DNA of 64,000 nucleotides. Origin: Pelagomonas calceolata (taxonomy: Eukaryota). The notes below the pieces were generated by a model, which saw only the letters and a program-made list of their open reading frames with translations, searched no databases and had not been told where the DNA came from. Location: positions 682,001 to 746,000 of the forward strand of contig CAKKNE010000001.1 of the NCBI GenBank assembly GCA_918797485.1, in the 5' to 3' direction. Shown piece after piece: positions 12,356 to 61,710 of this stretch (position 1 is the stretch's first letter; each line of letters starts with the position of its first letter). Position numbers and translations under genes: made by a program.

Positions 12356-12379
12356 GCTAGCGGCCTGTAAGGCACTAGC
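12356..12379 (+). repeat. 24-bp intergenic dyad element
   Basis: GCTAGCGGCCTGTAAGGCACTAGC. Confidence 0.9.
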
Positions 12380-12666
12380 CAGCACGCAGCGCCTACCAAA
12401 AATAGGTCGATTGCTAAGCTTGAGCATCGACTTGAGGGCTGGCAATAACGCCAGAGATTGCTTTCATCGCCCTACGGCTTGCCCTGAACGAACGCGTCAT
12501 CTCCCAGCGACGATAGCTCATTGGTCGCAGTCAGTGCTGCCACAGCTTTTCACGCGCAATAAATAGTCGCGCGCAATAAATACCGCGGGGGGCACACCCC
12601 CGCAACGAGACCGCAGCAATTACGCCGTCGACGCGCACGTGAAACCGTAACACACGTTCGACCGCA

Positions 12667-13722
12667 ATGCGCCGCCTCGCGACCCTCCTGCTCGCGCTGG
12701 CGACACACGCCTACAAGGACCCCGACGGCTTCGTCGTCGCCGGCTACCTGCCCGAATGGCGCTACGAGGGCGCGCACTGGGAGAGCCTGGCGACGCACCT
12801 CACGCATTTGATCTTCTTTTCGGCGGAACCGAAGCCCGACGGGACGATCACCGGCTTAGATCGCTTACCGAGACCCGAACTTTTGAAGGAAGCGAGAAAA
12901 GCCGCCGACGACAACGACCTGAAGCTCCTCGTGTGCTTCGGTGGGAATGGGAGAAGTTCGGGCTTCGCGGCGATGACCGGCTCCGACAAGTCGCGGAAGA
13001 AATTTGTGGAAAATCTCGCGAAGCTCCTAGAGAAAAAAAAATTAGACGGCGTCGACTACAACTGGGAGTACCCGGGCCACTCGTTCCAGACGGGTTATAG
13101 TGAGGCGCGCATTTCTCGCGAATGGCGGGGCTTGAAGTTACTCTTGGAGGAAACTAGGAGAGCGTTACCAAATGCCGTCATCAGCGTGGCCTACTATCCC
13201 GACGGAAGGCAAGAGAACTTGTTAGCGGCGGCCTCGGAGAACGCGGACGTGAATCACTACCACGCCATGGCCTACGACCAGCACGGCGAGCACCACTCGA
13301 CCTTTGGATTCGCGGAGCGGGTCGTCGAGAACGCCCTCAGTAGTAACTTGGATCCCTCGAAATGCACGCTGGGCTTACCGTTTTATGGGAGGCATGCTGA
13401 TGGCCGGTGGGAGACCTACGAAGATTTACTTAAAAGGGGTGCGGCGTATCATACGGATTTAGATAGTGTAGCACCAGCTAGAGACGGCGAGACGGGCGGC
13501 TGGGCCTTCAACTCGCCTTCCGCCATCGTCGCAAAAACAAAACTCGCGCGGCGGCGTCTCGGCGGCGTCATGGTCTGGGAAGCCGGTCAAGATTGCAGGT
13601 TGGGCGAGACGAGACATCGGACGTCGCGCGAGGTCCACGTCAGGACCTGCGGCAACGACGACGACAGCTTGTTGGTGGCGGTCGCGCGGGGGCGGGCCGA
13701 GTCGTCTTCGGGGGAGCTGTAA
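12667..13722 (+). CDS. Secreted glycoside hydrolase family 18 (chitinase-like)
   Basis: Signal peptide, VAGYLPEW, THLIF, DGVDYNWEYP catalytic motif, MAYD, LGLPFYGR, GGVMVWE. Confidence 0.9.
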   Translation: MRRLATLLLALATHAYKDPDGFVVAGYLPEWRYEGAHWESLATHLTHLIFFSAEPKPDGTITGLDRLPRPELLKEARKAADDNDLKLLVCFGGNGRSSGFAAMTGSDKSRKKFVENLAKLLEKKKLDGVDYNWEYPGHSFQTGYSEARISREWRGLKLLLEETRRALPNAVISVAYYPDGRQENLLAAASENADVNHYHAMAYDQHGEHHSTFGFAERVVENALSSNLDPSKCTLGLPFYGRHADGRWETYEDLLKRGAAYHTDLDSVAPARDGETGGWAFNSPSAIVAKTKLARRRLGGVMVWEAGQDCRLGETRHRTSREVHVRTCGNDDDSLLVAVARGRAESSSGEL

Positions 13723-13745
13723 TTTTCTTGTGGTTAGTCTTATTT

Positions 13746-14594
13746 CTAGGGTCGGCGCCAGTTCCCGAGCCACGCGTACTCGACGACCAGCCAGAAGCAT
13801 GGATCCGGCACGCCCACGGCCGTCGACGTGTCGAAGAGCCGCCAGACGACTAAGGTGGTCTCGGGACCGGCGCGCGCCCGTTTACGCGCGAGCAGCGACC
13901 GGAGGCGGAGCAATGCCATGTAGTCCTTCAGCACCCAGCGCTTGTAGCTGTGGCCGGCGAGGCGCGTGCCTTCGAGGATCGATGCCGATTCGGCATAGCG
14001 ATCGCCTCTTTCAGTCATGGTCTGCAGCCATTGCGATAGCGAGCCCTGGTCGGGCTCGCGATCAGCCACGTACTGGCGACAGTAGGCAGCTTCGGCGTTG
14101 GCGAGCTCTTCAAGAGTTCTATTACTAAAAACACCATCAAAACGAGCGGTGGTGAGAGCAACGCCAGCGGCCAATAGCATTCGCACGATACGCGGTTTTT
14201 CCAGATGTATTTCATAATAGATTATCCTTGGTCCATCTACTATTCCAGAAGTGTTGGCACCGCGAGCCAGGAGAAATTCGACGCAGTCAGCACTACGACT
14301 TGATACTGCCCACATGAGCGCGGTCCAGCCTGGGCTGTGCTCGCCTGCGGTGCAGGTAACGTTCACGTCCGCGCCGTGATCGACGAGGAGGCGCACGAGG
14401 TCGAGGCGGCCCATGCATGCCGCGACCATGAGTAACGTCGATCCTTGTGCGAAGGAGACATCGGTGCCGTGAAACACATGCGCAAGACCTTGATCCGGGT
14501 CGCCGCCCTGCGCGAGCCAATTTTTTATGGCGGGCTCACCATCGATAGCGCTTTCGAATACCTCCTCTAGTAGCAAGGGCTCGGATTCAGCCAT
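13746..14594 (-). CDS. Ankyrin-repeat protein
   Basis: GSTLLMVAACMGRLDLVRLLVDHGADVN and GWTALMWAVSSRSADCVEFLLARGAN; ATG chosen at 14594 (MAESEPL). Confidence 0.8.
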   Translation of the reverse strand: MAESEPLLLEEVFESAIDGEPAIKNWLAQGGDPDQGLAHVFHGTDVSFAQGSTLLMVAACMGRLDLVRLLVDHGADVNVTCTAGEHSPGWTALMWAVSSRSADCVEFLLARGANTSGIVDGPRIIYYEIHLEKPRIVRMLLAAGVALTTARFDGVFSNRTLEELANAEAAYCRQYVADREPDQGSLSQWLQTMTERGDRYAESASILEGTRLAGHSYKRWVLKDYMALLRLRSLLARKRARAGPETTLVVWRLFDTSTAVGVPDPCFWLVVEYAWLGNWRRP

Positions 14595-14817
14595 TCTAGG
14601 CGCAGCCGAGCGCTGCGCCTCAAAATTTAGCCGAAAGGGAGCGCAGCGAGTTGCCACTACTAGGTGGCCTTGTGGGCTCTGCGTAAATACCGCTTCCGAA
14701 GACCCCAAACCCCTGCAGTGGCTGGCGCGAGGTGCGTGGACAGCGATTCGTGACTCGCGTCGAACAAATCCAGCTTCTGCTCGGGAACGAGCAAAAACAA
14801 GAGCCGAGCCTGAGCGA

Positions 14818-14840
14818 GCTAGCGGCTGTAAGACACTAGC
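14818..14840 (+). repeat. Intergenic dyad element (23 bp)
   Basis: GCTAGCGGCTGTAAGACACTAGC. Confidence 0.9.
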
Positions 14841-15020
14841 AAGCAAGCGCGTTTCAGGATTACCCTAAACGGGACCGTGTCTCCGGTTGTCAGACGTCCC
14901 GGTATCTTCCAGAACCCGTTTTGTTCGACCCATGATATATCTCTAGTCTAGTAGCGTCGTGGTCAACCGGAGAATATATATCTGGTATATTTTTAATCGG
15001 AGGGGAAGCTAGGAGTCGAG

Positions 15021-16922
15021 TCACGTCCAGTTCAGCTGCGCGAGCTTGCCCGCGACCTTCGTCAGGTGGAAGTCGATGGCCTCGTCGTACATGTCCACGA
15101 GATCCCCGCTGTCGTCGGCGGCCCAAACTTGAGCGCGCCGCGCCGTCGTGCTGCCGTAGCTATGTTCGACGTTCGCGTCTAACTCGTTGTGGCGGTAGCG
15201 GTATTCGAGCCACGTGAGCGAGACCTGGAAGAGCGCGCCCATGGACTGGGGCACGATACGCCGGAACTCCTGGAACGCCTGGCGAGCGGTAACCTCGGCC
15301 GACCCGCCACCCACGGTCTCGGAATCGTCGCCCTCGTCTTCGGACGTCGGCTCGTTGTCCCGGCCCCCGTAGACGTAGGGTCCCGCTTCTCCCCTCGCGC
15401 GCGCGCGAGCGCACGACTCCGCACAAAGCACGTTGCAGTCGTGGTCCCACCGGTGCGCGACGCCCTGCCACTTCGGGCCGCTGTTCGCGCTGCAGCCCAA
15501 GTGGAGCCGACACTCGAGGCTTTCCGAGTCACCCCCCAGGGGCGCGACGCGAAAAAAGCACAAACCCGTGCACGTGTCTGCGCCGTACTCGTAGAAGCCG
15601 TCGTGTGGCCCGTTTGGACCTGTGGCGTCCATCAGGGCCTCTGGAAAGTGGATCGTGTGGCGACCCTCGGGACGCGGGTCGGGCAGCTTCGACCCGCGCA
15701 CGTCCACGATCTGACACATTTTCCCGTCGTTGTCGCGCACGGCGGTCACTACCAGCCGCCAGGGCCGGCACCACTCGGACGTGTAATCGTCCATGTACGT
15801 GTCGATCGGGACCGAGTGCGTGCGCATGACGCGGCCGCGGTCGTCGAGCGGCAGCAGCGCTTGCACGATGCCATCTTCGCTCGCGCGCACCGTCGCCGCC
15901 CAGAGCAGATTTTCCGTCTCGTCGCCGAGGTCGGTGGGGGCGTCGAGATGGGGCGGAGGGCCCCGAATGGCGAAATGCGGCGGACCGGCGAAGGCGTGCC
16001 GGAGCTCGTCCGTGACGAAGTCGCGCTGCTCCTCCCCGAGGTCCTCGCCCGGGCGAGGGTGCTCCTTCCAGTACTCGCGGTCCTTGTCGCGGCGGCGCCG
16101 GCTCTTGTCGACCTCGAACAGCTCGAAGATGAACGAGATGTCGGAGAGCGGGTGCGCTCTCGCGCCGGCGCTCAGCTCTGCATAGGGCGTCTTGCCCTCC
16201 TGGACCACCGTCGCGCACGTGAACTTCTCCCTCTCGTAGTGCTCACCACCGCTCTCCGCGGGCATCTTCCCGCTGATGCGGTACGCGGCCGCCGCGCGCC
16301 GGCCGGCGAGGCACCGCGAGCGGAAGAGCGCGCGGAAGGAGCACCCCGTCGGCGGGACCGGCACCCGGAAGGGCGAGACGATGGAGTCCGCGAAGTAGCG
16401 GCTGCGCCGCAGCAACGACGCGGCCGTCTCCTCGCCGCGGTCCTCCTCGTCCATAGGAACCACTTCCTCCCTAGACGGCGCGGTTTCCGGCGCCGGGAGC
16501 GGGCCGTCGCGGGCGCGGACGTGCGCCGGCGAGCACCGCAGGAAGAGCGCGCGCCAGACCGAGTCCTTGGCGGAGGCCTCCTGCCATTCCTTGCTCACCA
16601 GGCCGCACCCGAGGAGCGCTCGCCCCGCCTCGCTCGCCGTGTCGAAGGGGGCGTGTTGGACCAGGGCCGTGAGGATCTTTTCAATCACGTCGCCGGGGAG
16701 CGAGGACGCCGGCGACGGAGGACCGACGACCGTCGCGGCGTCATCGGCCGCCGGAGCCGCGGGGGCGCCCATCGTCCCGGGGCCTCTCTTGCACGGCGAG
16801 GTCTGCGGCTTGCCGGCGCCGGACGTCTCGCCCGCGCCGGACGTCTCGTCCTGTCTGCCGCCTCTGGTTGTAAAATTTGTCTCAGAGGCTTCCTGCGTCC
16901 GCTTTTTCTCGTCGTCTGCCAT
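15021..16922 (-). CDS. F-box domain protein
   Basis: LPGDVIEKILTAL...CGLVSKEWQEASAKDSVWRALF F-box-like motif; 633-aa intronless ORF. Confidence 0.65.
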   Translation of the reverse strand: MADDEKKRTQEASETNFTTRGGRQDETSGAGETSGAGKPQTSPCKRGPGTMGAPAAPAADDAATVVGPPSPASSLPGDVIEKILTALVQHAPFDTASEAGRALLGCGLVSKEWQEASAKDSVWRALFLRCSPAHVRARDGPLPAPETAPSREEVVPMDEEDRGEETAASLLRRSRYFADSIVSPFRVPVPPTGCSFRALFRSRCLAGRRAAAAYRISGKMPAESGGEHYEREKFTCATVVQEGKTPYAELSAGARAHPLSDISFIFELFEVDKSRRRRDKDREYWKEHPRPGEDLGEEQRDFVTDELRHAFAGPPHFAIRGPPPHLDAPTDLGDETENLLWAATVRASEDGIVQALLPLDDRGRVMRTHSVPIDTYMDDYTSEWCRPWRLVVTAVRDNDGKMCQIVDVRGSKLPDPRPEGRHTIHFPEALMDATGPNGPHDGFYEYGADTCTGLCFFRVAPLGGDSESLECRLHLGCSANSGPKWQGVAHRWDHDCNVLCAESCARARARGEAGPYVYGGRDNEPTSEDEGDDSETVGGGSAEVTARQAFQEFRRIVPQSMGALFQVSLTWLEYRYRHNELDANVEHSYGSTTARRAQVWAADDSGDLVDMYDEAIDFHLTKVAGKLAQLNWT

Positions 16923-17014
16923 GGTCGCCGGTAATAATAGAAAGCCTTGCGTCGACTGTCGCTACGTAAGCGCAATAATACGCCCTGGTAGCCGGGCGCG
17001 CTGGAAATCCGCGG

Positions 17015-17038
17015 GCTAGCGGCCTGTAAGACACTAGC
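17015..17038 (+). repeat. 24-bp intergenic dyad element (consensus)
   Basis: GCTAGCGGCCTGTAAGACACTAGC. Confidence 0.9.
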
Positions 17039-17087
17039 AAGAACGGACTCAAAACATAGGAGATATTAGGCCGAGGTCACACGTCAG

Positions 17088-19451
17088 TCACGCCTTCGTC
17101 GACCACGTATACCGCGGCGGAGGAGCAGAAGCCTTGACCTCGGGAGGCGGCGGCGGCGGCGGCCGCGCGCGCTGAGAATCGGGAACCCCGACGTCGCCCC
17201 GCGCGAGGCGCTCCCGCGCGTTCCTGACGTTCGTGTCGATCTGGTGGTGCACGGCCGGCAGTAATAACTGGGCCGCTTTTTCATATTTCTCCAGAGCTTC
17301 CTGAACTCGCCCGCGCGTCTCGAGGAAAAAACCGTAGTTGTTCAACACTTCGGGCGAGTCCGGCGCCACCTGCATGGCCCGCTCATAGAAGTCCGCCGTC
17401 CTTTGATCGTCTGATCCTTGATCACTTAGAATTGAGGCGGCATTCGCCAGACACTCCGAGCTCCCGGGAACTCTTTCAAGACACGCCTCGAAGGCCACCA
17501 GCGCACCCTGGTCGTCTTTCCGGCCTCGCCGCGCCAAACCGATCAAATTCAGACACGCATCCGCCTTGACCCATCGATCGGGATGTATGCCTTGCTCGCG
17601 GTACTGCTCCGACAGATTCCACGCGTTCACCGAAGAAATCTCGGCAGCTTCAAAGTCGTCGCGCTCGAACGCGATCGACGCGGCGGCCCAGTGCGTCAGG
17701 GGCAGCTCCGGGTCGCCCCGCTGGATGTGATCCGCGGCGAGGTCGATGAGCGACATTCTTAGTAATTGAATCTTGGGGTCATTCAAGAATTCCAGCGGTT
17801 TCGCTAACAACCACAGCTCCTGGCCGAGGTACGTTTCGATGCGTTGGTCCGTGCCTCCGGGTGTTGCTGTGAGAGCATCCGCGAAATCGCGAGCTGCGGC
17901 TACTCGTCTGTCTTCGAGATGATGCACCAAGCCCCGATTAAACAATGCGGAGGGGAACCCCTTGTAGGTCCCCAAAGCATCATCCAATAAAGCTCTAGCT
18001 CGCGGTAAGTCCCGCTGTTTTATTGTTTCGGCGTCATGGCCATTTAACAGAACTAAAGCTAGGTTGTTCAGGATTTTTAGACTGCGAGGACAGACATCCA
18101 ATGAAGCTTCAAACAGGGACCGCTCCGAGGACCAGGCTGAATTGCGATCGACGGTTCTGATAGAGCCCAGTAACAGTGCAGAGAGTAACGAGAGCTTCTG
18201 CGACCTTGATACGGCACCGCGACTCGGCACTATGGAAGAATACAAACCGGTGTCCGGAGCGCTGCTACAGACTTCATCTACTTTGAGGTAGCGACATAAG
18301 GCCGCGACGCCGATGCTGAAGCCGACCGACGGTAGATACAACAATCGCTCGCCGACGGGCGTGCCCACCGGTAATAAGATGTGGGCCGCGGGTAGGAACG
18401 GCACTAATCCTAACGCCAAAGCCAGTAAAACGTGGCGCTTTTTGTTAGAGAGGCCCTCGTATGCCATATAAGCTATAAACGAGTACAGTATCAAAGGGTA
18501 GGCGTTGCGCCGATCGTTTAAGTGGAGAATGTGGGGCAGGCAGGGGTAGCCATAATCATAACATAGATAACAGGGCGTTATGAGTTTGACGAAGTAGCGC
18601 CAGTGGAAGTGGGCATACGTTAGATAAGTGGCAAGTCGGTCATCTGCTAAATCAGCAGCCACGGAGTTTTCGAGGAGCGTCCACTTATAGAGTAGGTGTT
18701 GGCCGTGTCTCCTGGTATGTAGCCACAACACTCCAAGAACGCCGGTGAGGGCCGCTGTTGTTCTTAGAATAAACGCCTTGGATCTCGCGAGGCGTTTTCC
18801 GGCTTTCATTACTGTGGGAGAGGCACAGATCACGTCGACGACGTCGAAGGCCACAAATAAAGCGAACGTAGCGACGCCGACCTCCTTGGCGAGCGACGCG
18901 AGCAAGGCCACGACGAACGCGAGCATCGCGGCGAACCCGCCTCTTTGATAGAGTACAATGGCAAACAATGCGAGGAACCCCCCCAACACGTCGGCCCGGC
19001 CCACGACGGACGCGACGGGCTCGGAATGGGTCGGGTGCACAACGAAGATTAGCGTGGCGAGCCTCGCACTCGTCTCGTCCTTGCGGAAGGCGTTGCGCGC
19101 CACGCTCAACATCAATGCGCACGAGCAGGCATGGAGCAACACATTGACGAGATGGTACCCCAAAGGTGCATAGCCGTGGACCAGGTAGTTCATGCGAAAC
19201 GACCACGTCGCGAGCGGCCGCCAGGACTTGTGCGAGTCCGGCGCGGCCATGGGCTGGCCCCAGTAGTCGTGGTTCAGGTAGTCGGGGCCCGTGGCCACGT
19301 CCTTGTTGTAGGTCACTGACGCGCGGTCGTCCCAGACGACGCCGTTCCGCACGGAATTGACATGTAGCGCTAGCGATAACAAAAAGGCGGCTTTTCTAGG
19401 ATGGCGATCACACCAAACCAGCATCCTCGGTAGGAGGCCCCGGGGCTTCAT
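17088..19451 (-). CDS. TMTC: TMTC-type protein O-mannosyltransferase (transmembrane + TPR)
   Basis: WDD, HDYWG..SHKSWRPL, HPTHSEPV..VVGRADVL, GTPVGERLLYLPSVG, many TM segments, C-terminal TPR repeats. Confidence 0.9.
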   Translation of the reverse strand: MKPRGLLPRMLVWCDRHPRKAAFLLSLALHVNSVRNGVVWDDRASVTYNKDVATGPDYLNHDYWGQPMAAPDSHKSWRPLATWSFRMNYLVHGYAPLGYHLVNVLLHACSCALMLSVARNAFRKDETSARLATLIFVVHPTHSEPVASVVGRADVLGGFLALFAIVLYQRGGFAAMLAFVVALLASLAKEVGVATFALFVAFDVVDVICASPTVMKAGKRLARSKAFILRTTAALTGVLGVLWLHTRRHGQHLLYKWTLLENSVAADLADDRLATYLTYAHFHWRYFVKLITPCYLCYDYGYPCLPHILHLNDRRNAYPLILYSFIAYMAYEGLSNKKRHVLLALALGLVPFLPAAHILLPVGTPVGERLLYLPSVGFSIGVAALCRYLKVDEVCSSAPDTGLYSSIVPSRGAVSRSQKLSLLSALLLGSIRTVDRNSAWSSERSLFEASLDVCPRSLKILNNLALVLLNGHDAETIKQRDLPRARALLDDALGTYKGFPSALFNRGLVHHLEDRRVAAARDFADALTATPGGTDQRIETYLGQELWLLAKPLEFLNDPKIQLLRMSLIDLAADHIQRGDPELPLTHWAAASIAFERDDFEAAEISSVNAWNLSEQYREQGIHPDRWVKADACLNLIGLARRGRKDDQGALVAFEACLERVPGSSECLANAASILSDQGSDDQRTADFYERAMQVAPDSPEVLNNYGFFLETRGRVQEALEKYEKAAQLLLPAVHHQIDTNVRNARERLARGDVGVPDSQRARPPPPPPPEVKASAPPPRYTWSTKA

Positions 19452-19600
19452 TTCTTCGCTTGCTCCTTCGGCGGGGCAGCCCGCCGCCCTTTGAGAATGG
19501 CTGCCAGGGGCAGGTGCGTCTTGGCCTTGGCCAGGCGCCGCTGGAACTCCTTCTCCTTCTCGGCGAGGCTCTTGGCCGCCTCGGGTTTGAGGCCCTCCAT
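19448..19600 (-). CDS. 50-aa basic ORF whose stop overlaps the TMTC start codon (ATGA)
   Basis: MEGLKPEAAKSLAEKEKEFQRRLAKAKTHLPLAAILKGRRAAPPKEQAKK*; coding-like codon usage; below the ORF-track length cutoff. Confidence 0.45.
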   Translation of the reverse strand: MEGLKPEAAKSLAEKEKEFQRRLAKAKTHLPLAAILKGRRAAPPKEQAKK

Positions 19601-19635
19601 TTATTTGACGCGCGGCAGCGTCGTCTCCGCTGTAA

Positions 19636-19659
19636 GCTAGTGCGTGTGTGTACGCTAGC
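19636..19659 (-). repeat. 24-bp dyad element, arms conserved, core divergent
   Basis: Reverse complement reads GCTAGCGTACACACACGCACTAGC. Confidence 0.7.
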
Positions 19660-19715
19660 TCTACACAACTTGCAAACTGGAGGCTACGACGCTGTCGGGC
19701 TGCCCAACTTGCTGG

Positions 19716-20840
19716 ATGATCCTCACAAAATGCGCCGCCTGCGCCACCGAGCTTGGCTTATCCTTGGGCAAGAAATGCGGCCGCTGCAGCACGCGCTACT
19801 GCGGACCCGAATGCCAGGTGCAGCACTGGAAAGAGGGCGGCCACGACCAGCTCTGCAAACCAATAAAAAAGGCTGGTGGCGCGGAGCAATACAACGCAAA
19901 TAAGAAGTACGCGGAGGCCGTCACAGTCGCCGCGGAGGCGTGCGCGGAGGACACCAAGGGCCAGACGTGCTACATCTGCACGCAGGCGCTCCATTGGAAA
20001 ACAAAGGAGGGCCTCGTGCGCGGGTGCTCGTGTCGTGGGACGGCGGGTTTCGCGCACGTGTCGTGCTTGGCGGAGCAGGCGAAGATTTTGGTCGCGGAGG
20101 CCGAGGAGAACAATTCAGACGACTCGCAGTGGCATCGGTGGAACACGTGCAGTCTGTGCGAGCAAGAGTACCATGGGGTGGTGGTGTGCGCGCTTGGGTG
20201 GGCGTGCTGGAAGACGTACCTGGGTCGGCTGGAGGCGGACGAGCTTCGGATCGGCGCTTTGTCGCTGCTCGGGAACGGTTTATCTGATGCAGGACATAAC
20301 GAGGACGCGTTGCCCGTGAGAGAGGCCGAGTTGGCTATGAGGCGGCGCCTTGGCGCCTCAGAAGAAAACATTCTCGTCGTGCAGAGCAATCTTGCAATTA
20401 CGTATGGAGAGCTAGGAGACCTTGAGAGGGCCCTAAGCATGGAGCAAGAAGTATACTCCGGACGTTTGAAGCTCAACGGCGAGGATCACGAAGAGACCCT
20501 CATAGCAGCCAGCAACTACGCGACGTCCCTTGTTCGTCTTCAGCGCTTCGGAGAAGCCAAGTCGCTGCTGCGCAAAATAATGCCCGTGGCGCGGCGCGTT
20601 CTCGGAGAGAGCCATCAACTCACGCTCACGATGAGGTGGAATTACGCGATGGTGCTCTACAAGGACGCCAGTGCCACGCTCGGCGATCTCCGCGAGGCCG
20701 TGGAAACGTTCGAGGAGATTGAACGGACATCGCGGCGCGTGTTTGGTGGCGCGCACCCAAACACGCGAGGGATCGAGGTAGCCCTGCAGGAGGCGCGAGA
20801 AGCCCTTCGCGCCCGCGAGGCGCCGTCAGCGAGTGTGTAA
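19716..20840 (+). CDS. MYND zinc finger + RING-variant + TPR protein
   Basis: CAAC..CGRC..YCGPECQVQHW..H..C (MYND); CYIC..CSCRG..HVSCL..W..CSLC (RINGv); kinesin-light-chain-like TPR repeats. Confidence 0.85.
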   Translation: MILTKCAACATELGLSLGKKCGRCSTRYCGPECQVQHWKEGGHDQLCKPIKKAGGAEQYNANKKYAEAVTVAAEACAEDTKGQTCYICTQALHWKTKEGLVRGCSCRGTAGFAHVSCLAEQAKILVAEAEENNSDDSQWHRWNTCSLCEQEYHGVVVCALGWACWKTYLGRLEADELRIGALSLLGNGLSDAGHNEDALPVREAELAMRRRLGASEENILVVQSNLAITYGELGDLERALSMEQEVYSGRLKLNGEDHEETLIAASNYATSLVRLQRFGEAKSLLRKIMPVARRVLGESHQLTLTMRWNYAMVLYKDASATLGDLREAVETFEEIERTSRRVFGGAHPNTRGIEVALQEAREALRAREAPSASV

Positions 20841-20865
20841 GAAGGTACGTTAATCACTTTACTCA

Positions 20866-22563
20866 CTACATCCCCGCCAGCACGCCCTTGACGGACGGCA
20901 GGGCCCGCCGCCTTTCGGAAACCGGCGTCGCGGCCGCCGGTTTTGCGGGCGGCCGCTTTTCGGGAGGCGACGCGCGCGGCGCGGCCTCGCGCCACGAGGG
21001 CGACCGGCGCATCTTCGTCCGTTTACGCGTTTCCTCTTCACCGATTTGCGAGGAAGGCAGCCGTTTAGCTGCCGCCGCGAAGAACTCGACGACGGCGCGG
21101 TCCGCCCACGACCGCCCCCGCCAATCTAGGAAGGACAGGTGGCCCCCTAACAACGTCGTGCAGCACGCAATGAAGGGACTCAGGTTCACCAGCGTCGCGT
21201 CGGAGATGGCGTACTTGCCACAAAAGGGCACGACATTATCATCACTTGACTGCACACAAAGCAACGGACAACTCAACCGCCCTAGATCCGCAAACCCGTC
21301 GTTCGCCTCGTAGTAGGCCTCGGGGTTCGCGTGGCCCCAGGGTTTACAGATGACCGCCGCCTCGATGTCGTAGATCGACCGCGCAAAAAGAACGTCGCGC
21401 TTGCGGCCGCTCTTCCGTCCACTCAAGAACCAGCTTACTTTCAGGGGGATGGCTATGGCGAAGTTTTGTAGACGTGCCAAGGGACCGCTCCGCATCTGGG
21501 CGCTGCTCGCGGCGAAGGATCGCGGCGACGAGACCGTGCATGCAGCTGTCACGCGTGGATTTCTCGAACTCAGATACTTGGCCAGGATCGCACCACCTAA
21601 ACTTTGACCCACGAGAAACAAACGACATTTCGGGCCGACCTCCTTCCTTATATGCTCCAAGACTCCGTCGAAGTCGCGCCACGCATCAGCACTATAAGGT
21701 TTGGTCGATGTGAGCACCCCGGACGCGCCCGCACCCCGATAATCGTAGGCCACGGCGAGGAAGCCCGCACCATCCAACTGGGCCAGTAAGGACCGCACGA
21801 AGCCCGTCTCGCTCGAGTTGTTCAGGCCTGTGTGGAACTCAAAATTTTACGGCGTGCTGAATCGTCGCGTCGTCCTTCACGCCATCGACGCGATGCCTGC
21901 TCGATGGCGTGGCGATGCCGATTTCTCACCGCTCGACGGAGCCGGCACGGCCGCCTGATTTCCACACAGGTTCACGCCAGGGAAGACCACCGCGACGTCG
22001 GACCGCGACGTCTGGTGCGGGCAGCGCCACCAGGACAACGCCACGGTGCCTCCATCATCCAACTGCAAGCGTTCCACGTAGGGCGCCGTCAGCACGCCGC
22101 AGCCGGCGTAGGGCATCCTCGAACCGAGCTGTAACGTGGCGCTCGCTCCATTTAACGCGGTTACCGGGTGCGGCCAGTACCTTCTTCGTACAATGTCACA
22201 GTTGGCCAAAATGTCCTCCGTGACGCCTTTCCGCGACGTCAGCTTCGGCCGTCGCGCGAGCGCGACGTAGGCGCCGAGGTAGCCGACGCAGGCGCCGCCG
22301 GCCGCCCACTTCGCGCTTTGCGGTAATTTCGCGAAGTGATCTTTGATCGACCGGACCATCTCTGAAACCTTGGCGCGGAGGGCGTTGTCGGCGCGCGCGA
22401 GCACCATGAGCGCGTCGTGGCGCGACCGCAGGCGGAGCGTCCTCTCGAGGCACAGCATGAGCTGTGCTACCAGGTTAATGCGTGGCTGCAGCGCGCGCGC
22501 GATGACTACGATCACTACTCCCTTCGAGGCGGCGTCGAGGCACCAGGCGCGGACGCTGCGCAT
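20866..22563 (-). CDS. Alpha/beta hydrolase, ABHD1/3-like
   Basis: GC-AG intron 21828-21977 joins VVFPG|LNNSSETGFVR; GQSLG nucleophile elbow, SSDDNVV, GGHLSF. Start uncertain. Confidence 0.85.
21828..21969. mobile_element. Introner element with TIRs and 8-bp TSD
   Basis: CTGTGTGGAA...TTCCACACAG termini flanked by GTTCAGGC (21820-21827) and GTTCACGC (21970-21977). Confidence 0.9.
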
Positions 22564-22748
22564 TTAATGCTGCTACTGCAGCCTTCAGCCTGCAGTCCAG
22601 TGATTTTATCAGTACGCCGCCTCACGGCTCGAAAACCCTGTATATCGACAGCTCGCAGCCGTTCTTTGATCACGACGTAAGGATTGCAGCACTCGTGGTG
22701 CCAGCACTCGTGCGTGTGCAGCTCACGACTCATCAGCTTGTTGAGCTT

Positions 22749-22772
22749 GCTAGTGTCTTACAGGCCGCTAGC
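22749..22772 (-). repeat. 24-bp intergenic dyad element
   Basis: Exact reverse complement of 17015-17038. Confidence 0.9.
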
Positions 22773-22972
22773 GAGTCATCCTACAATTGTCTCCTACTAT
22801 TAAATGTAGTATGGACGACTTACGCTATCGTCGCGGGGGGGAAGGGCACAGCGGCATAACATTTGCGAGGTCTGCTGCAGCGTAGAATGGCGAACGCGGT
22901 GACCAGGCGCTGCTCCGGCCGCCATTATATAGCGTCGTCCTCAAAGAGCACGACGGTCGCGTCGCCGCCCAT

Positions 22973-23674
22973 CTAGAGGTCCCAGTCGACGGGCCCGCGG
23001 CTGATCTCCTCCAGGAAATCGTTGGCGGCCTTGAAGCACCCGGACCGCGCGAACGGCGCCGCGGTTTTGGTATAACCGAGCGGCGAGGGGTGCGAGGTCT
23101 TGATGACCTTGTGCTTGGCCTCGTTGATCAGGCCGGCGAGCTTGTGCGCTTTGTCCCCCCACAGCAGGAAGACGACGCCCTTGTCGCCCGCGTCGACGAG
23201 TTTAATGATGGCCTCCGTGAGCCGGCCCCAGCCGAGCTGCAGGTGCGACCCCGCCTTGCCGGCGCGCACCGTCAACGACACGTTCAGGAGCAGCACGCCC
23301 TGCTGCGCCCACGAAGAGAGGTCTCCATCGTCCTTCTCCGACGGCGCCGCGCCCGGGTAGTTGCGCTCGAGCTCGCTCATGATGTTCCGCGAGGTCGGAG
23401 GAAGTCGACCATCCGCGTCGGCCGCGTAGGAGAACGCGAGGCCGTCCGCTTGCCCGGGGCCGTGGTACGGGTCCTGGCCCACGATGACAATTTTCACGTC
23501 CTCGAGAGCCGTCTTATTCAGACAGGCGAACACATCCTCCTTCTTCTGCGGGCACACGGCGTCGGGACCGGCCTCGTACTCGCGAAGTACGGCGGCGCCG
23601 AGCCGATCGCGGTACACCTCCGAGAGCTTTCCCTCGAGCGCGTCGCGCCACGCCTGGGCGCGAATGAGGGCCAT
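22973..23674 (-). CDS. UNG: Family-1 uracil-DNA glycosylase domain (C-terminal module of the fusion)
   Basis: VIVGQDPYHG, GLAFS, WAQQGVLLLN, GSH..GW, VFLLWG, TSHPSPL all intact. Confidence 0.95.
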   Translation of the reverse strand: MALIRAQAWRDALEGKLSEVYRDRLGAAVLREYEAGPDAVCPQKKEDVFACLNKTALEDVKIVIVGQDPYHGPGQADGLAFSYAADADGRLPPTSRNIMSELERNYPGAAPSEKDDGDLSSWAQQGVLLLNVSLTVRAGKAGSHLQLGWGRLTEAIIKLVDAGDKGVVFLLWGDKAHKLAGLINEAKHKVIKTSHPSPLGYTKTAAPFARSGCFKAANDFLEEISRGPVDWDL

Positions 23675-25858
23675 GAGCTCGCCGCCCCTCTTGCGCGGCC
23701 TGTGTGAAGAGAGCTATTGCGGGAGACCTTCGTCGACCTCTAAGCCATCGAACAGACGCAGTACATCGCGTCGATGGCGTGCCGCGAAGCTTGTTTTCTA
23801 CGCCGCGCGCGACCGCTTCGAAGCGGGTCCGTCCGCGTCGTCCGCGTCGCCCGCGTCATCATACTCGTCGGCCAACGCCGCGCACGTCAGTCCCGGAAGC
23901 TTGTGACACGCGAACGTCCCTTCCTCAAAAGAGACGCCCGCCGGGAGCACCCGCCACGCGGCGCACTCCACGCAGCGCTCCTCCTGGACGCCGTTGTACT
24001 GCACGGCGATCAGGCTGTGCCGGTGACGCGGCCCTACCATTGGAGGCAGCGCCCAAGCCGGGATCGCGCCTTTGCTAGTGACGGCGCCGAGCGCCGAAAA
24101 GGACGCCGCGCAGAACCCACAGCACTCCTGGTGGAGCGAGACCGCCTCGAAGCCCGTCGCGCCGTCGCGCAACGCGACCGTGATGGCGGCTCTCTGCTCG
24201 GCGTGCCACCAAACACGCAAACTAGCCTCGGAGAACACGTGGTGCGCGACGCGTCTGTTCCGCCGCGAGCACGCGACGCGCGCCCAGGCCGCGGCGACTT
24301 CTTTACAATTATCGCCGAGGAAGTCGCGCACCTCCTCGTTCATGGGCACGCCGTCCTCGATAGCGTCCATCAAAGGCGCGACAGCTTCGGCCGTGAAGGC
24401 CTCTCTCTTGCAAGCGGCCGCGACGCACCTCAAAAAGATATGCGAGCCGACCGCGTCGGCCGCCTCGCGGTCTTTGGAGGACGCCACGACGACGGAGCGG
24501 TCCGTCAGGCCGGCGCCGAGGGGCCGAGCTATAGCAAACGTCCGCGTCGTGGCCTCGTGGTTCGCCTTCGGGAGTCCAACTGCATTCACGACATCGGCGC
24601 GTAGTTTGTTGATCTTCCGGGCGTGGTCCGCGCCCGCAAGAACCCTCGAAGCTTCTAAAGCTAAGTCACCCGACGGCGGGGCGCCATCATACAACACACC
24701 GCCAGACGTCGTGGCTTCGATCAGATCCGCGTCATCATCTAAAGGACGGAGCCGGAGCGCACCAGTCGTATCGACCCGGCGCTGGGGCGCGGGCGCCGCA
24801 GTCTGCGCGTCCAAAGCACAGCCCTTGCAGACGAGGTCAGGCAGACCCGGGACAAGGAAGCGTTCGCCCTTCAACGCGCTGTGGTCCGGGTCGCCGCAGA
24901 TGACACACCTCCACGCGTCGTGCCGGGCGGCATCGTCGCCGTTGACCGACGACACGCTCACCAAGCACTGCTCCTCGACATTCTTTGTCAACGCCTGCAC
25001 TATATGGCCAACTTTGAACTCAATTCTACCGAGCGCGCCCCTATAGTTGCGGCGCTGCTCGATGCGTTGGCCGACGGCGACGACTTCAGGCCGACCCACG
25101 CCCATTATCCGCTCGGCGACCGACCGACCGCTCGCTAATTTCGACGCCTCGGCGCACTCGTCGTCGTCGAGGACTTCGTCTCGGAACGCGGCCTCCGCGT
25201 CGGCCGCGTCGGCCTGGGCCTCCTCCTCCGCTTCGGCCTCGGCTTCGGTGGCGCGGAAGAAGTCTGCGCGGAGCTTCTCCACCTCGAGCGCCCGGGCCTC
25301 TATGGCCTTCGCTAAAGCAGCTTTCTTCGCCGGCGTCGGGCCGCCAAATCTTTCAACGCGCGCGGCGGACGGGGCGCCATATCTAGCCAAAGCTGAGCGG
25401 CAGGACTGGCAGCCGATGATCATCTCACCATTCCATTCAAAATTGCTGATCCTAATCCCTGGGTCCGCGTCCATCCCGCATCCACATTTGATGCAGTAGG
25501 TTGCGTCCGGAGGATCGAGGGGGTCCAGTCCTGCATTCCAGCGGTTGTGGCACGACCGGCACGCCGTATCTTTGCCATCAGGACCCAGGAAAAAAACGTC
25601 CGTAGGCGACGCGCAGCATAAACACCGGTCAGTTTTGCGCTCGTTCAACGGCGGCAAATCATCGTTTCGTCTCCTTTTGCAAGTATGGCAGACGCGGCCG
25701 CCCGCGACAAGAGCTGCGATCTTTGAGCCGTGAAATAGTTTGTCGCAGTCGAGGCACGTCCAGGCACCGACGACAGGTGTAGATTGCCAGCGGCCCGTCC
25801 CGCGCCGCGTCTCCGGCGTCTGAGTGCCCCCTACCAATCGGCCGAGTGCTGCAAGCAT
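22973..25858 (-). CDS. Fusion protein: CxxC zinc fingers + putative Zn-dependent deaminase + zf-CW + uracil-DNA glycosylase (~923 aa)
   Basis: Exons 25858-23814 and 23699-22973; GT-AG intron 23813-23700 carries the introner core motif and removes the in-frame TAG. HAE 24205-24197, CCGFC 24124-24110, CVECAAWRVLP..FAC..C (zf-CW), junction peptide KRPRKR. Confidence 0.75.
23700..23813 (-). mobile_element. Introner-type intron joining the deaminase/zf-CW exon to the UNG exon
   Basis: Starts GTCGCGCG CGGCGT, contains ACGCCATCGACGCG, ends TTCACACAG; first 8 nt match the next exon start GCCGCGCA at 6/8. Confidence 0.8.
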
Positions 25859-26324
25859 CTTCGCCGATGCCCTTAGGCCGCTCACGCCGTGGCGCGTTCC
25901 TATATGGCCTCAGTGGTCGAAGCGACAATGAGCCTCGCCCGAGGCTGAGGGCGACGTGTATTTTTTCTGAGCCGTTTGCAGTGGTCGTGACGCTCGCCAT
26001 GGTTACGATGATGTTAATGGTGAATGTGAGTTGTGATGATACGGCTTGTAGACGCCTAGGAGCGCCCGAATTAGCGTGAGAGCATGTTCGGAGTGCAGCA
26101 AAAACCCGTTTTGACGCTGCCGTGCTCGCTCGGGCATAGGGTTCTACACGAAATTTACTGTTAGCTACGCGACTTTTACTTGCCCGCTCGTCCACGGTCG
26201 AACTTCGTCGGGCGTTACTCCGAGTCGGCAGCGGCCCCGAGACAACAACTTGGGGGAGGGGTCGATCTTCGGTCTTCTTAGGTCTTGGTCGCGCGCGCGC
26301 GCGACGACGACGACGACGCCGGGA

Positions 26325-28589: not shown

Positions 28590-28912
28590 CTTTGGTTGTT
28601 GAGCGGTCGCGGCGGCGTTCGGCGCACGCAAATTTGCTGGTGTGCTGCTGGGGCTGTCTGTAGCTCCGCAGCTACGTAACGCTGGCCGATGCGCTTGCAG
28701 CTACAAAGTCTTGGCAGCACGGCTGGGGCCTACGTCGCTTGACGAGTCCTGTGTAGGCTCGAGAGACGCGCTATCGGCCGTACAAAGTCGCAGCGGTTGT
28801 AAACCTGTTTTAACTCTGAGCTAAAATTTGCAAGGCTCGAGCCGCCGTCAGAACCCTCATGGCATCCTTCTCGGAGCCCTCTCAGTACCGACCCGCAGAG
28901 GAGTACCACGGT

Positions 28913-28936
28913 TCTAGTGTCTTACACGCCGCTAGC
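28913..28936 (-). repeat. 24-bp intergenic dyad element
   Basis: Reverse complement reads GCTAGCGGCGTGTAAGACACTAGA. Confidence 0.9.
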
Positions 28937-29169
28937 TTCGGGTGAGAGCCGGCGCTTTTTTTGCGACCGCTGGCGGCGCCTACGCGTCTTTGCGACAGCG
29001 TTTCTCCATTTCACGGTTCCCACCTAGCACTTGCGCCGAAAGCCGCGCGCGACAAGAGCCCTCAGCCGGTGCACACAAGCAGAGAGCTGCAGAGGCAAAA
29101 AGCTCCCGCAGCGCTCGCGACCGCCGTCGACGCCGTCGACGCACAAGCAGAAGCTAGACAAAAGCAACC

Positions 29170-29946: not shown

Positions 29947-30049
29947 CTGCTGCGCCGATGGCGTCACGCGAGGGTTAATATATTAGTTGAGATGCGCCAG
30001 ACGTGGGCCTGAGGCCCAACGCGTCCGCCAAACTCGCACGGCATTCGAT

Positions 30050-30072
30050 ACTAGCGTCGTATGGACACTAGC
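30050..30072 (+). repeat. Intergenic dyad element (variant)
   Basis: ACTAGCGTCGTATGGACACTAGC. Confidence 0.75.
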
Positions 30073-39586: not shown

Positions 39587-39610
39587 GCTAGCGTCCTGTA
39601 AGACACTAGC
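39587..39610 (+). repeat. 24-bp intergenic dyad element
   Basis: GCTAGCGTCCTGTAAGACACTAGC. Confidence 0.9.
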
Positions 39611-42241: not shown

Positions 42242-42614
42242 TTTCGTCGAGCTGGCTTTTTTCGATGCAGAGCCTCTGGAGAGCCCAAGCTCGCGCGCAC
42301 GCGGTGATCGACGGCAAGGCTGCCCCAGCAGAGAGAAGTAGGTAAGAAGAGAGACGCGATGTGCGGGAGTGAACCCCTGGGAGCGCTACCCAGACACACC
42401 ACGCACGAAGCGCAGACTAGCTAGTTCAATGACACACTAGGATCAATGGGCTCTCCGGCGATGAGATGAAAATTATCGTCGGTAAGGCCGAAAAGATCGG
42501 GCGGGGGTTGGCGAAGGCTGCGGGCGAGTAAGAGTGTGAGAGTCAATGTGCAGTCCGCGGGCGACTATTCTTTTTGTATGGAACTTACTGAAGTAGGCCC
42601 ACTTAGTATGGTTC

Positions 42615-45959: not shown

Positions 45960-46254
45960 GAATCTCTTTGTTGTAACAGATGAGTCCCAGCTAGAGTAGT
46001 AACATACTAATATTACCGGGGCGCGGCAGCGACGGCCGTATAAAACAATAGCATCGCACCAGTGGACAGAGCATACGTCCGTGAGCCCTTTGCGCTCCAC
46101 CAGCATGGGTCTGAACGATACGCCGTCGCCGTGCGGCGTAGCCTCTGCATAAGGACTCCAAACCAGACACCTCGCCGCACACTGCCCGCACACGCGCGCG
46201 ACGGCGCCCCCGCACAACTGACGAGCCGACGACGCACGCGACGACGACGCAACC

Positions 46255-54848: not shown

Positions 54849-54872
54849 GCTAGCGGTATGTAACATACTAGC
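54849..54872 (+). repeat. 24-bp intergenic dyad element (variant)
   Basis: GCTAGCGGTATGTAACATACTAGC. Confidence 0.8.
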
Positions 54873-57546: not shown

Positions 57547-57571
57547 GCATGAGTAAGAAACTTAAACAACA

Positions 57572-60500: not shown

Positions 60501-60725
60501 GCAGTAATTATCTAAATTCCATCGAGCTTCGCCGGCCGAATTCAGGCAGCACGGCCCATAATAATTCGTGAACTCCGTCGGACAGGGGTTGGAGCAGCTC
60601 CAGCCGGGCCGCACGGTACTGATCGGTTCGCCCGTGACCGGGTCGTAGGGGACGGTCATGGGGCCGTCGGCGCGGTAGTCGTCGTCGGCCGTGACCACCG
60701 CGAGGAGGGGGAGGAGGCGGCGCAT
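57572..60725 (-). CDS. Membrane protein: signal peptide, Cys-rich ectodomain, TM helix, cytosolic EF-hands
   Basis: Introns 60289-60381 and 58330-58495 join two ORFs (EDYC-AIHYPDP); EF-hand loops DADESMAVDRTEF and DADASGGISFEEF. Confidence 0.7.
58330..58487. mobile_element. Introner element with TIRs and 8-bp TSD
   Basis: CTGTGTGGAAAT...ATTTCCACACAG flanked by GATGGCAC (58322-58329) and GATCGCAC (58488-58495). Confidence 0.9.
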
Positions 60726-61175
60726 GGCGCTGGGCTGCCTGTCGCGGCGCCTCGCGGGGCCGGCGCGCGCTGTCGCGTTATGAGCTGTTCTGACGCGTCG
60801 TCTCGCGCATGATTCCGGCTGCCCCGCTGGCCGTTCGCTCGGCTCTCGAGGCTTTGCTCCCCCCGGAGAGCATGTCTGCGCTGCTGCTTAGCGCCGGGCG
60901 ATAGTGCCCTATTCTTATTGTTCCCGGGCTTACCTGTCGAGGGAGGCATCGCTGCGACGGGTGGGGTGAGAGCTGTGACCGAAACCCGATTTGCAAAACG
61001 ACGATGTCCAAGTCAGCCGTCACCGGTGCGCTGCGAGGAGACTTCGGCAAGTAGACGTCAGAGACCCGTTGTAACGCACAAATAACATCCATTCCCAGCG
61101 CTGTGAAGAGATTTTGAGAAGCGCCGCTCGCCTACAGGGGCTAAAAACTATTCGATTCAGTGAGCTGCACAAAAA

Positions 61176-61622
61176 ATGCGTTGCCGTACTCTCGCCCTCT
61201 GCGCGTTGTCAGCGCCCGCCGCGGCCCTGGTCCACCACCAGTACAACTCGGTGCCCGACGGCCCGATGCGCACGAAAGCGACGGCGACAACCACGACCAT
61301 TGCGCCGCCGCCCGCGCCGTCCTACATGAAAGCCTTTCTAAGGGAGCGCCTCGGCTACACCGACGACCAGATCGCCGAGACGGCCGGGCTCTTGGAAACG
61401 ATCCCGCCGCCCGCCGCCGTCGCGGCGCTGCCGGAGCGGTGCGCGCGCCTCGCCCGCGCGAACATGGCGCTCACGCCGGAGCGCATGGCCCGCGCCCTCG
61501 AGGCCACCGACGAGGACTGGCACGATTTGTTGATGGAGCTGGCGCGGCAGCAGGTCGCGGCCCAGGGGCCCATCGCGGTGCCGCCGCCGTCGCGGCCCGC
61601 CGACGGCGGCGACGAATTCTGA
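61176..61622 (+). CDS. Small hypothetical protein with a signal-like N-terminus
   Basis: 148-aa ORF, MRCRTLALCALSAPAAA. Confidence 0.55.
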   Translation: MRCRTLALCALSAPAAALVHHQYNSVPDGPMRTKATATTTTIAPPPAPSYMKAFLRERLGYTDDQIAETAGLLETIPPPAAVAALPERCARLARANMALTPERMARALEATDEDWHDLLMELARQQVAAQGPIAVPPPSRPADGGDEF

Positions 61623-61688
61623 ACCTTCACGAAGTAAGCCTGTGTTTCTGTAGTTGACCTTGGACTCCAAGAGCTGCGCAAGACGTGG

Positions 61689-61710
61689 CCTAGCGGCCAA
61701 AGACACTAGC
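61689..61710 (+). repeat. Intergenic dyad element (22 bp)
   Basis: CCTAGCGGCCAAAGACACTAGC. Confidence 0.8.

What the first reader, a model, noticed from the sequence alone, without database searches (positions are those of the whole stretch)
12356..61710. A ~24-bp dyad element (GCTAGCG-N10-CACTAGC) upstream of many unrelated genes
Seen: copies at 12356, 14818, 17015, 19636(-), 22749(-), 28913(-), 30050, 39587, 54849 and 61689, plus degenerate ones at 42420 and 45990. All are intergenic, one per region, in either orientation and within about 35-325 bp upstream of a predicted ATG. Five lie between divergent gene pairs; I saw none in convergent gaps or modelled exons. The inverted CTAG arms and their spacing persist even when the core changes (19636), and several copies are followed by AAGC. 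Inference: a site for a dimeric DNA-binding protein (general promoter, insulator or nucleosome-phasing element), a recombinase-type site with an asymmetric core, or the terminus/footprint of a very small mobile element. I do not recognise it as described.
Basis: partly seen in the sequence, partly recalled or inferred. Interest (0 to 1): 0.8.

Follow-up and report, generated by a model that had tools for sequence, protein, structure and literature searches.

The report
Pelagomonas CTAG promoter-boundary DNA element
A 24-base near-palindrome with two CTAG arms recurs about every 5 kb between the genes of this stretch of the ocean alga Pelagomonas calceolata, right beside where RNAs begin; it is likely the docking site of an unidentified protein that would mark gene starts across the genome.

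Summary
The element is real. All 12 listed copies are present and intergenic; CTAG pairs 16-18 bp apart number 11 against 0.67 expected. The host is Pelagomonas calceolata. An ocean-metagenome scan gave 121 loci with unrelated flanks: 0 of 117 matches lie in a predicted ORF, and 79 of 105 called neighbours face it with their 5' end. All 7 copies with RNA data lie 5-22 bp outside an RNA contig end (six 5', one 3'), on either side; one copy starts an antisense RNA. The arms are constrained: left arm intact in 20 of 20 copies found without it, adjacent core changed in 14. Spacing is less fixed than claimed, the consensus is no stable hairpin, and one perfect copy fires in neither direction. New: 16 of 121 copies carry a fixed 6-bp insert, in either orientation, behind the right arm only, like excision scars of a targeted transposon. 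Best reading (0.6): a general-regulatory-factor-type site for a dimeric protein, possibly spread by copying. Binding, the protein and chromatin effects are untested. I found no description in the searched papers, nor a prior note in this scan.

The parts
12356..12379 (+). Element copy, 1 difference from consensus; divergent gap proteasome subunit / GH18 chitinase
   Evidence: RNA contig begins at 12395, 16 bp beyond the right arm
14818..14840 (+). Element copy with 1-bp core deletion; tandem gap upstream of an ankyrin gene
   Evidence: RNA contig ends at 14801, 17 bp beyond the left arm
17015..17038 (+). Perfect consensus copy; tandem gap between F-box gene head and TMTC gene tail
   Evidence: TMTC RNA contig ends at 17043, raw 3' piles at 17059 and 17070; F-box gene has no reads in X21/X22
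19636..19659 (-). Copy with intact arms and 18-bp spacing but replaced core; divergent gap TMTC / TPR-MYND
   Evidence: RNA contig edge 19630, raw 5' pile 19595
22749..22772 (-). Perfect consensus copy; tandem gap; a + strand RNA antisense to the UDG gene starts beside it
   Evidence: contig edge 22789, raw 5' piles 22812 and 22840; UDG ORF on - strand
28913..28936 (-). Element copy; divergent gap enkurin / PP28-SAP gene
   Evidence: RNA contig edges 28942 (6 bp away) and 28789 (124 bp away)
30050..30072 (+). Degenerate copy, 17-bp spacing; tandem gap upstream of a Rad50/SMC-type gene
   Evidence: lies in the RNA-free gap between contig edges 29993 and 30094
39587..39610 (+). Element copy (T8 variant) with AAGC repeats; divergent gap
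   Evidence: no RNA data
42420..42441 (+). Degenerate copy, 16-bp spacing, extra CTAG at 42417; tandem gap
   Evidence: no RNA data
45990..46011 (+). Degenerate copy with broken right arm (CTAA); divergent gap upstream of XRN exonuclease
   Evidence: (sequence); weakest copy; no RNA data
54849..54872 (+). Copy with 4 core changes, arms and spacing intact; divergent gap DFRP / DnaJ
   Evidence: no RNA data
61689..61710 (+). Copy with 2-bp core deletion, followed by CAAGC; tandem gap upstream of a short-chain dehydrogenase
   Evidence: no RNA data

Best explanation
The element is likely the binding site of an abundant, still unidentified dimeric DNA-binding protein that would act as a general regulatory factor at about half of the promoter-containing gaps of Pelagomonas calceolata. 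Shown: it is a 22-24-bp pseudo-palindrome, GCTAGCG(G/T)C(C/G)TGTAAG(A/G)CACTAGC, often followed by AAGC; it lies between genes in either orientation, just outside the RNA of the neighbouring genes; its two CTAG arms are conserved more strictly than its core. Inferred: each subunit reads one CTAG-centred half site; the bound protein keeps a short open stretch of chromatin from which RNA polymerase II starts some tens of bases away on either side (antisense RNA where no gene faces it), and may stop incoming transcription as yeast Reb1/Rap1/Abf1 do; gene-specific signals decide whether a side fires. Inferred separately: a cut-and-paste transposon is or was targeted to the right arm and leaves the 6-bp insert with a duplicated CTAG when it excises.
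For: Not chance: 11 CTAG pairs at 16-18 bp against 0.67. Outside ORFs: 0 of 117 matches after dropping 6 duplicate or allelic loci (about 40 of the loci hold 300 bp or less per side). Facing gene heads: 79 of 105 called sides (of 234), against a length-weighted expectation of 0.60, p=0.0013; Pfam-supported subset 37 of 49, p=0.029; 1 of 30 two-sided loci convergent, p=0.024. RNA: 7 of 7 copies in 11.5-31.4 kb have an X10 contig end 5-22 bp outside them, joint chance about 1e-4 under random placement in the gaps; raw-read 5' piles lie 40, 41 and 68 bp from two copies; only 14-19 raw reads per run lay on the consensus copy at 22763, nearly all from other copies, while DNA contigs sum to depth 1490 there against about 5 on single-copy pieces (suggestive only). 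Arm constraint: found by the core alone (<=1 mismatch), 9 of 10 copies have both arms perfect and the tenth has a displaced intact arm; found by the right 11 bases alone, the left arm is intact in 20 of 20 while the 7-bp left core is changed in 14 of 20, p about 0.002. A degenerate copy is identical in three alleles whose surroundings match at 90-91% (L016, L037, L127).
Against: No binding, chromatin or mutation data exist here, and no candidate protein was identified. The perfect copy at 17015 has no RNA leaving it on either side in X21/X22, so it is not sufficient for transcription. Twelve of 24 head-containing gaps have no copy. Spacing varies (16-19 bp; 18 in 7 of 12 window copies), which a rigid dimer would not tolerate well. 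About 30 bits of information (13 copies, arms ascertained) against 13.4 needed for 6000 sites, and linkage of the T8 and G10 variants across unrelated loci (p=0.0012), point to spread by copying, which a plain factor-site model does not need. The RNA-edge result rests mainly on assembled contigs of one run whose RNA nature is a guess, and contigs cannot prove a start; five of 12 copies have no RNA data. The genome is so compact that any untranscribed sequence lies near an RNA end. The head bias over the length-weighted null is modest (75% against 60%), and that null comes from one hand-curated window.
Confidence: 0.6

Rival explanations
1. The element is a mass-produced transposon footprint or minimal mobile repeat: a duplicated CTAG target around a 14-bp remnant, planted in open promoter DNA and now without function of its own.
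For: CTAG is self-complementary, so the arms read as a target-site duplication; conservation stops at the element's edge; 81 of 118 pattern matches are one identical string (selected by the pattern); excess information and linked variants suggest copying; the same CTAG-filler-CTAG geometry is seen in the 6-bp inserts, one of which is polymorphic between alleles that are 99.3% identical (L004/L053).
Against: Neutral decay should hit arms as often as core; instead the arm is intact in 20 of 20 while the core is changed in 14, and many core changes are substitutions, not junction deletions. The inner 14 bp have no terminal inverted repeat (3 of 7 positions). The distal CTAG of the 6-bp inserts is intact in only 6 of 16 beside a perfect element, so true scars do decay here. 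No longer parent element was found next to any of 121 sites. This reading may still explain the origin of a site that was later co-opted.
Confidence: 0.2
2. The element is mainly a recognition or attachment site for a site-specific recombinase or transposase that integrates at the right arm, and its place at promoters is secondary.
For: 16 of 121 matches carry GCATCC or GGATGC directly after the right arm, none at the left arm, and none after a CTAG unrelated to an element among 1452 strand positions; L114 seems to carry two successive inserts where its allele L024 has one; the site is a pseudo-palindrome with an asymmetric core.
Against: Variable spacing; thousands of sites kept under selection would need a host benefit; no occupied site among 121; no match in viral contigs; the searchable 88% of the published gene table lists one Tc1-like transposase and no tyrosine recombinase.
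Confidence: 0.1
3. The element is a landmark for replication or recombination (origin, fork barrier or double-strand-break hot spot) that sits in promoters only because they are open.
For: Orientation-independent, untranscribed, constrained; scars at the arm and clustered indels beside it in three allelic pairs. Yeast general regulatory factors also bound Okazaki fragments (PMC5052057, abstract).
Against: One copy per 5 kb is dense for origins (own knowledge); the pooled flank-divergence test showed no excess near the element (0.14 per base at 0-30 bp against 0.11-0.16 farther out); it does not explain RNA starting on both sides.
Confidence: 0.07
4. The element acts as a single-strand hairpin (REP-like repeat, Helitron 3' end or small RNA).
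For: Arms can pair; the core-replaced copy at 19636 folds better than shuffles (z=-3.0).
Against: Consensus copies fold no better than shuffles (z +0.2 to +0.9; 1 of 6 folds below -1.3); T follows the right CTAG in 2% of sites; no shared upstream body; no Rfam match; nearly absent from polyA reads.
Confidence: 0.03

Closest known systems
Yeast general regulatory factor sites (Reb1, Abf1, Rap1; PMC5052057 abstract and outline seen; PMC5880240 and 10.1101/331793 search listing only)
   Same: One motif at many unrelated promoters, either orientation, next to starts, at the border between transcription units, with a possible roadblock for incoming transcripts.
   Different: Different sequence; a much longer, pseudo-palindromic, information-rich site (about 30 bits); RNA edges lie within tens of bases; binding and nucleosome effects are not shown here; arm-specific insertion scars.
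Staf/ZNF143 binding site of human bidirectional promoters (PMC3082894, abstract and outline seen)
   Same: A long site enriched between divergent genes, with initiation on both sides, including non-coding RNA.
   Different: ZNF143 is a zinc-finger array on an asymmetric site (own knowledge); here two symmetric CTAG arms carry the constraint, which suggests a dimer.
Oomycete core promoter motifs INR, FPR and DPEP (PMC3599244, abstract seen)
   Same: Stramenopile promoters without a TATA box that carry lineage-specific motifs of 16-19 nt.
   Different: Those motifs lie at or downstream of the start and are directional; this element lies outside the RNA and works in both orientations.
Pelagophyte introner elements (PMC9481584, passages and supplementary note 3 passages seen)
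   Same: Repeats of the same genome; copies occur in this window.
   Different: About 140-210 bp, inside genes, with terminal inverted repeats and an 8-bp duplication; unrelated to the 24-bp element.
Promoter-targeted transposons guided by host factors (Tf1 by Sap1, Ty3 by TFIIIB; recalled, not read) and Tc1/mariner excision footprints (recalled)
   Same: A host-factor site directs insertion to one fixed position; excision leaves a duplicated target with a few terminal bases in either orientation.
   Different: No full element was found; the 6-8-bp filler is longer than the usual 2-3 bases; the insertion point is within the site's own arm.

Membership tests
General regulatory factor / bidirectional promoter site | Many copies upstream of functionally unrelated genes | tested here: met
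   12 window copies, 121 loci, 79 of 105 sides face a gene head, diverse Pfam families
General regulatory factor / bidirectional promoter site | Close to transcript starts, in either orientation | tested here: met
   7 of 7 tested copies 5-22 bp from a contig end; raw 5' piles at 40-68 bp for two copies; one region, few runs
General regulatory factor / bidirectional promoter site | Position-specific sequence constraint | tested here: met
   Arm intact 20 of 20, core changed 14 of 20
General regulatory factor / bidirectional promoter site | Bound by a protein in vivo, with a nucleosome-free region | not testable with these tools
   No ChIP, ATAC or MNase data
General regulatory factor / bidirectional promoter site | Needed for expression of the neighbouring genes | tested here: inconclusive
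   Not sufficient (17015 silent on both sides); necessity needs mutation
Non-autonomous DNA transposon (MITE) or its footprint | Target-site duplication | tested here: inconclusive
   CTAG at both ends can be read so, but no empty allele was seen; the 4 allelic pairs were selected for presence
Non-autonomous DNA transposon (MITE) or its footprint | Terminal inverted repeats and a shared body inside the duplication | tested here: not met
   3 of 7 inner positions match; no parent element among CTAG-bounded inverted repeats
Non-autonomous DNA transposon (MITE) or its footprint | Even, neutral decay | tested here: not met
Tyrosine-recombinase site (loxP/dif type) | Fixed spacing between inverted arms | tested here: not met
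   Spacing 16-19 bp among copies
Tyrosine-recombinase site (loxP/dif type) | Cognate recombinase in the genome | tested here: inconclusive
   None among 4 'integrase' text hits in the held 88% of the gene table; chromosome 6 mostly unseen
REP repeat / Helitron 3' end | Stable GC-rich hairpin; for Helitrons CTRR followed by T and a shared body | tested here: not met
Introner element | Intron of about 200 bp with splice sites and terminal inverted repeats | tested here: not met
   All copies intergenic and 22-24 bp
Oomycete INR/FPR/DPEP core motifs | Located at or downstream of the start, directional | tested here: not met
   Outside the RNA, both orientations; motif sequences not compared base by base (abstract only)

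The most novel reading that the evidence does not exclude
P. calceolata has replaced much of the standard core-promoter code with one operator-like 24-bp site, spread to thousands of promoters by transposon activity and read by a lineage-specific dimer that starts transcription both ways, perhaps in place of a lost or unrecognisable TBP/TFIIB (neither is annotated in the 88% of the gene table seen), while a transposon still homes to one arm of that same site.
Probability: 0.1. Interest if true: 0.9.

Novelty: new variant of a known kind. Interest (0 to 1): 0.64.

Why it matters
[quoted passage not shown] A single conserved site at about half of the promoter gaps (about 6000 copies if the window's density of 12 per 64 kb holds for 32.4 Mb) would give a direct handle on its transcription: a bait to find the master factor, a marker for gene starts in annotation, and a part for genetic tools. 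Its operator-like length and information content would test whether very large populations evolve bacterial-style long sites. The arm-specific scars point to an undescribed targeted transposon.

Tried and rejected
No whole genome is held for this window, so genome-wide numbers are extrapolations. Viral contigs: 0 matches for the 23-bp and 17-bp patterns. Prokaryotic genomes: 1 match in 596 billion bases; it lies in a short eukaryote-like patch of a bacterial contig (CTAG-rich first 3 kb, 1 CTAG in the last 57 kb), and two more CTAG pairs sit at contig ends of that bin, one identical to a copy in L016/L037, so I treat them as chimeric assembly. Rfam: 0. Hairpin function: rejected. Mutation hot spot in the flanks: seen by eye in three allelic pairs but not in the pooled count, which was also spoilt by pairs that stop being homologous; not claimed. 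A CTAG pair at 31746 (15-bp spacing) lies inside the Rad50 gene span and was left out as probable chance; a half site at 50279 was left out too. Search for a full transposon between CTAG sites returned only pairs of the element itself. The low-GC gene beside the element in L027 is CoiA-like, with no sign of transposon ends. One orphan Zn2-Cys6 gene is annotated, but that family reads CGG triplets (own knowledge), so it is not favoured. Literature: exact-sequence search 0 papers; term searches gave no description in their listings; term look-ups in PMC9481584 (main text, and 5 supplementary files, one scanned file not searchable and the gene table cut), 10.1101/2024.10.30.620910, PMC13284251 and 10.1101/2025.04.21.649811 found no promoter motif. 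The two Huff and Zilberman papers on Aureococcus were not held, and figures and bioRxiv supplements could not be seen, so a mention there is not excluded. Earlier scan notes: none for this genome or sequence.
Full report
1. Observation. The strict pattern with up to 2 mismatches gives 12 strand matches at 7 sites, against 0.63 in shuffles. A flexible search finds the other listed copies as shorter forms: 14818 and 30050 (arms 17 bp apart), 61689 and 42420 (16 bp), and 45990 (16 bp, right arm CTAA). CTAG is rare in the window (119 times, against 262-524 for GATC, AGCT and TCGA), and pairs 16-18 bp apart number 11 against 0.67. On a hand-curated gene map all 12 copies are intergenic: 6 of 10 divergent, 6 of 14 tandem and 0 of 10 convergent gaps. 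The last is not significant alone (p=0.10), since convergent gaps are short.

2. Organism. Proteins next to the element in metagenome loci cluster with proteins named Pelagomonas calceolata (3 of the 6 clusters found, of 10 asked, show such a name among the members listed). One of these lies on a contig of 6,277,007 bases, the length also given for three window proteins. The published genome has six contigs, 32.4 Mb and 16,667 genes (PMC9481584, passages). No whole genome was available.

3. Spread and limits. Conservation ends at about -3 and +5, so the element is not the end of a longer repeat. Viral contigs gave 0 matches and prokaryotic genomes 1, in a chimeric patch. Whether other pelagophytes have it could not be tested. 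Allelic pairs among the loci are 88-99% identical.

4. Relation to genes. With a codon model trained on window genes, 0 of 117 matches fall in an ORF (6 duplicate or allelic loci dropped; about 40 loci have short flanks). Of 234 sides, 105 have a called gene within 700 bp: 79 heads and 26 tails. Of 103 such ORFs 47 have Pfam hits, from unrelated families, giving 37 heads and 12 tails (hand count). Against the length-weighted expectation of 0.60, p=0.0013 and 0.029. The right (CAAGC) side faces a head somewhat more often than the left (44 of 53 against 35 of 52, p=0.07; not significant).

5. Relation to RNA. Two raw polyA runs and two contig sets were laid on 11,501-31,400. Known genes fix the strand (first mate on - means RNA on +). 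Contigs of X10 end at 12395, 14801, 19630, 22789, 28942 and 30094 (5' sides by the raw-read strand) and at 17043 (3' side). These are 16, 17, 6, 17, 6, 22 and 5 bp outside the seven copies; random placement in the same gaps gives about 1e-4. Contigs cannot prove a start, but raw 5' piles at 19595, 22812 and 22840 lie 41, 40 and 68 bp from two copies. Starts occur off both arms. At 22749 the RNA leaving the element to the right is antisense to the uracil-DNA glycosylase gene and to a Cys-rich ORF. Against a simple activator, the perfect copy at 17015 has no reads over the F-box gene on its left and none leaving to the right. Few raw reads lie on the element at all (14-19 per run at 22763, nearly all with another copy's letters), whereas DNA contigs pile up there; this suggests that the element is kept out of transcripts genome-wide, but depth is no copy number. 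The five copies beyond 31.4 kb have no RNA data.

6. What is conserved. To avoid circularity I masked the scan's own hits and searched 276 kb of loci plus window with parts of the motif. By core alone (<=1 mismatch, about 0.7 expected) there were 10 hits, 9 with both arms perfect and one with a displaced intact arm. With one arm plus core, the other arm was intact in 12 of 12 and 15 of 15. By the right 11 bases alone, the left arm was intact in 20 of 20 while the 7-base left core was changed in 14. The left 11 bases alone are not specific (17 hits, 11-22 in shuffles); they revealed one dead copy (L012:1336) with a 6-bp core insertion and a broken right arm. The 13 unselected 18-bp copies hold about 30 bits (arms ascertained), against 13.4 needed to mark 6000 sites. 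The T8 and G10 variants are linked across loci (p=0.0012). The consensus is not a stable hairpin and matches no Rfam family. So selection acts on the two CTAG words in double-stranded DNA, and the shared core reflects weaker selection, spread by copying, or both.

7. An unexpected feature. In 16 of 121 matches (15 loci, as L024 and L114 are alleles) the right arm is followed by GCATC(C) or its reverse complement GGAT(GC), in 6 cases closed by a second CTAG. No left arm has it, and no unrelated CTAG among 1452 strand positions. L004 and L053 are 99.3% identical and differ by exactly this 10-bp unit; L114 seems to hold two rounds. The filler does not copy the variable outer flank. A fixed filler in both orientations inside a duplicated target is what excision of a cut-and-paste transposon leaves (own knowledge); whether the duplication is TA, TAG or CTAG cannot be told. 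The distal CTAG decays while the element's arm does not, which again shows constraint on the arm. No occupied site was found. The searchable gene table lists one Tc1-like transposase.

8. Mechanism. Shown: position, orientation, RNA edges in one region, arm constraint, arm-specific inserts. Inferred: a dimer binds the two CTAG half sites, keeps promoter DNA open, lets polymerase II start on either side and may block read-through, as described for yeast Reb1, Rap1 and Abf1 (PMC5052057, abstract) and, for two-way initiation, human ZNF143 (PMC3082894, abstract). I give this 0.6, a functionless footprint 0.2, a recombination or integration site 0.1, a replication or break landmark 0.07 and a hairpin 0.03. 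A transposon origin and a present role as a factor site do not exclude each other.

9. Comparison and novelty. It works like a general-regulatory-factor or bidirectional-promoter site, but binding and chromatin effects, which define that class, are untested. It fails the tests for MITE, recombinase site, REP/Helitron end, introner and oomycete INR/FPR/DPEP (PMC3599244, abstract). An exact-sequence search found 0 papers, and term look-ups in four Pelagomonas or pelagophyte papers found no promoter motif; two Aureococcus papers, figures and some supplements were out of reach. One lead raises the ceiling: no TBP and no TFIIB proper are annotated in the held part of the gene table (chromosomes 1-5 and 91 genes of chromosome 6, about 88%), though Brf1 and several TAFs are; they may simply lie on chromosome 6.

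10. Verdict. Real and apparently undescribed; a new variant of a known kind of element, with a second, unexplained layer of targeted scars. Interest 0.64.

Noticed in passing
window 22789-~26100 (+): PolyA RNA on the + strand (depth 16-50) covers the uracil-DNA glycosylase gene (22973-23674, -) and a 686-aa Cys-rich ORF (23798-25858, -), whose sense strands have 0-4 reads: long antisense transcription starting beside the 22749 element.
   Followed up: partly
loci L004/L053, L024/L114, L025, L066, L079 and others, right arm of the element: Fixed 6-bp insert in either orientation inside a duplicated CTAG, right arm only (16 of 121); looks like the scar of an unidentified targeted transposon.
   Followed up: partly
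window 42417; loci L063, L098, L105, L118: Tandem CTAG-CTAG duplication at the left arm without filler (4 of 121 loci matches plus one window copy).
   Followed up: no
window 21828-21969 and 41384-41589: Introner-like elements with ends CTGTGTGG...CCACACAG and 8-bp target duplications; other repeated intron families crowd the dynein heavy-chain gene at 1-10 kb.
   Followed up: partly
published gene table of P. calceolata (PMC9481584, supplementary file 4): No TBP (PF00352, K03120, IPR000814) and no TFIIB (K03124) in the held 88% of rows, while Brf1 and TAF1/5/6/7/13 are present. They may lie on chromosome 6.
   Followed up: partly
L027:1228-2983: A low-GC CoiA-like gene (family also seen in giant viruses and bacteria) and an AT-rich spacer sit between two back-to-back elements whose right arms each face a gene.
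   Followed up: partly
L012:1336: Dead copy with a 6-bp core insertion that is the reverse complement of adjacent core bases, and a broken right arm, about 600 bp from a perfect copy.
   Followed up: no
L123:1760-3800, L127 end, L128 end (G001): Bacterial bin contigs carry short eukaryote-like patches with the element, probably chimeric assembly.
   Followed up: yes
window 15021-16922 (-): F-box-like gene with no polyA reads in X21 and X22 despite a perfect element 93 bp upstream.
   Followed up: no
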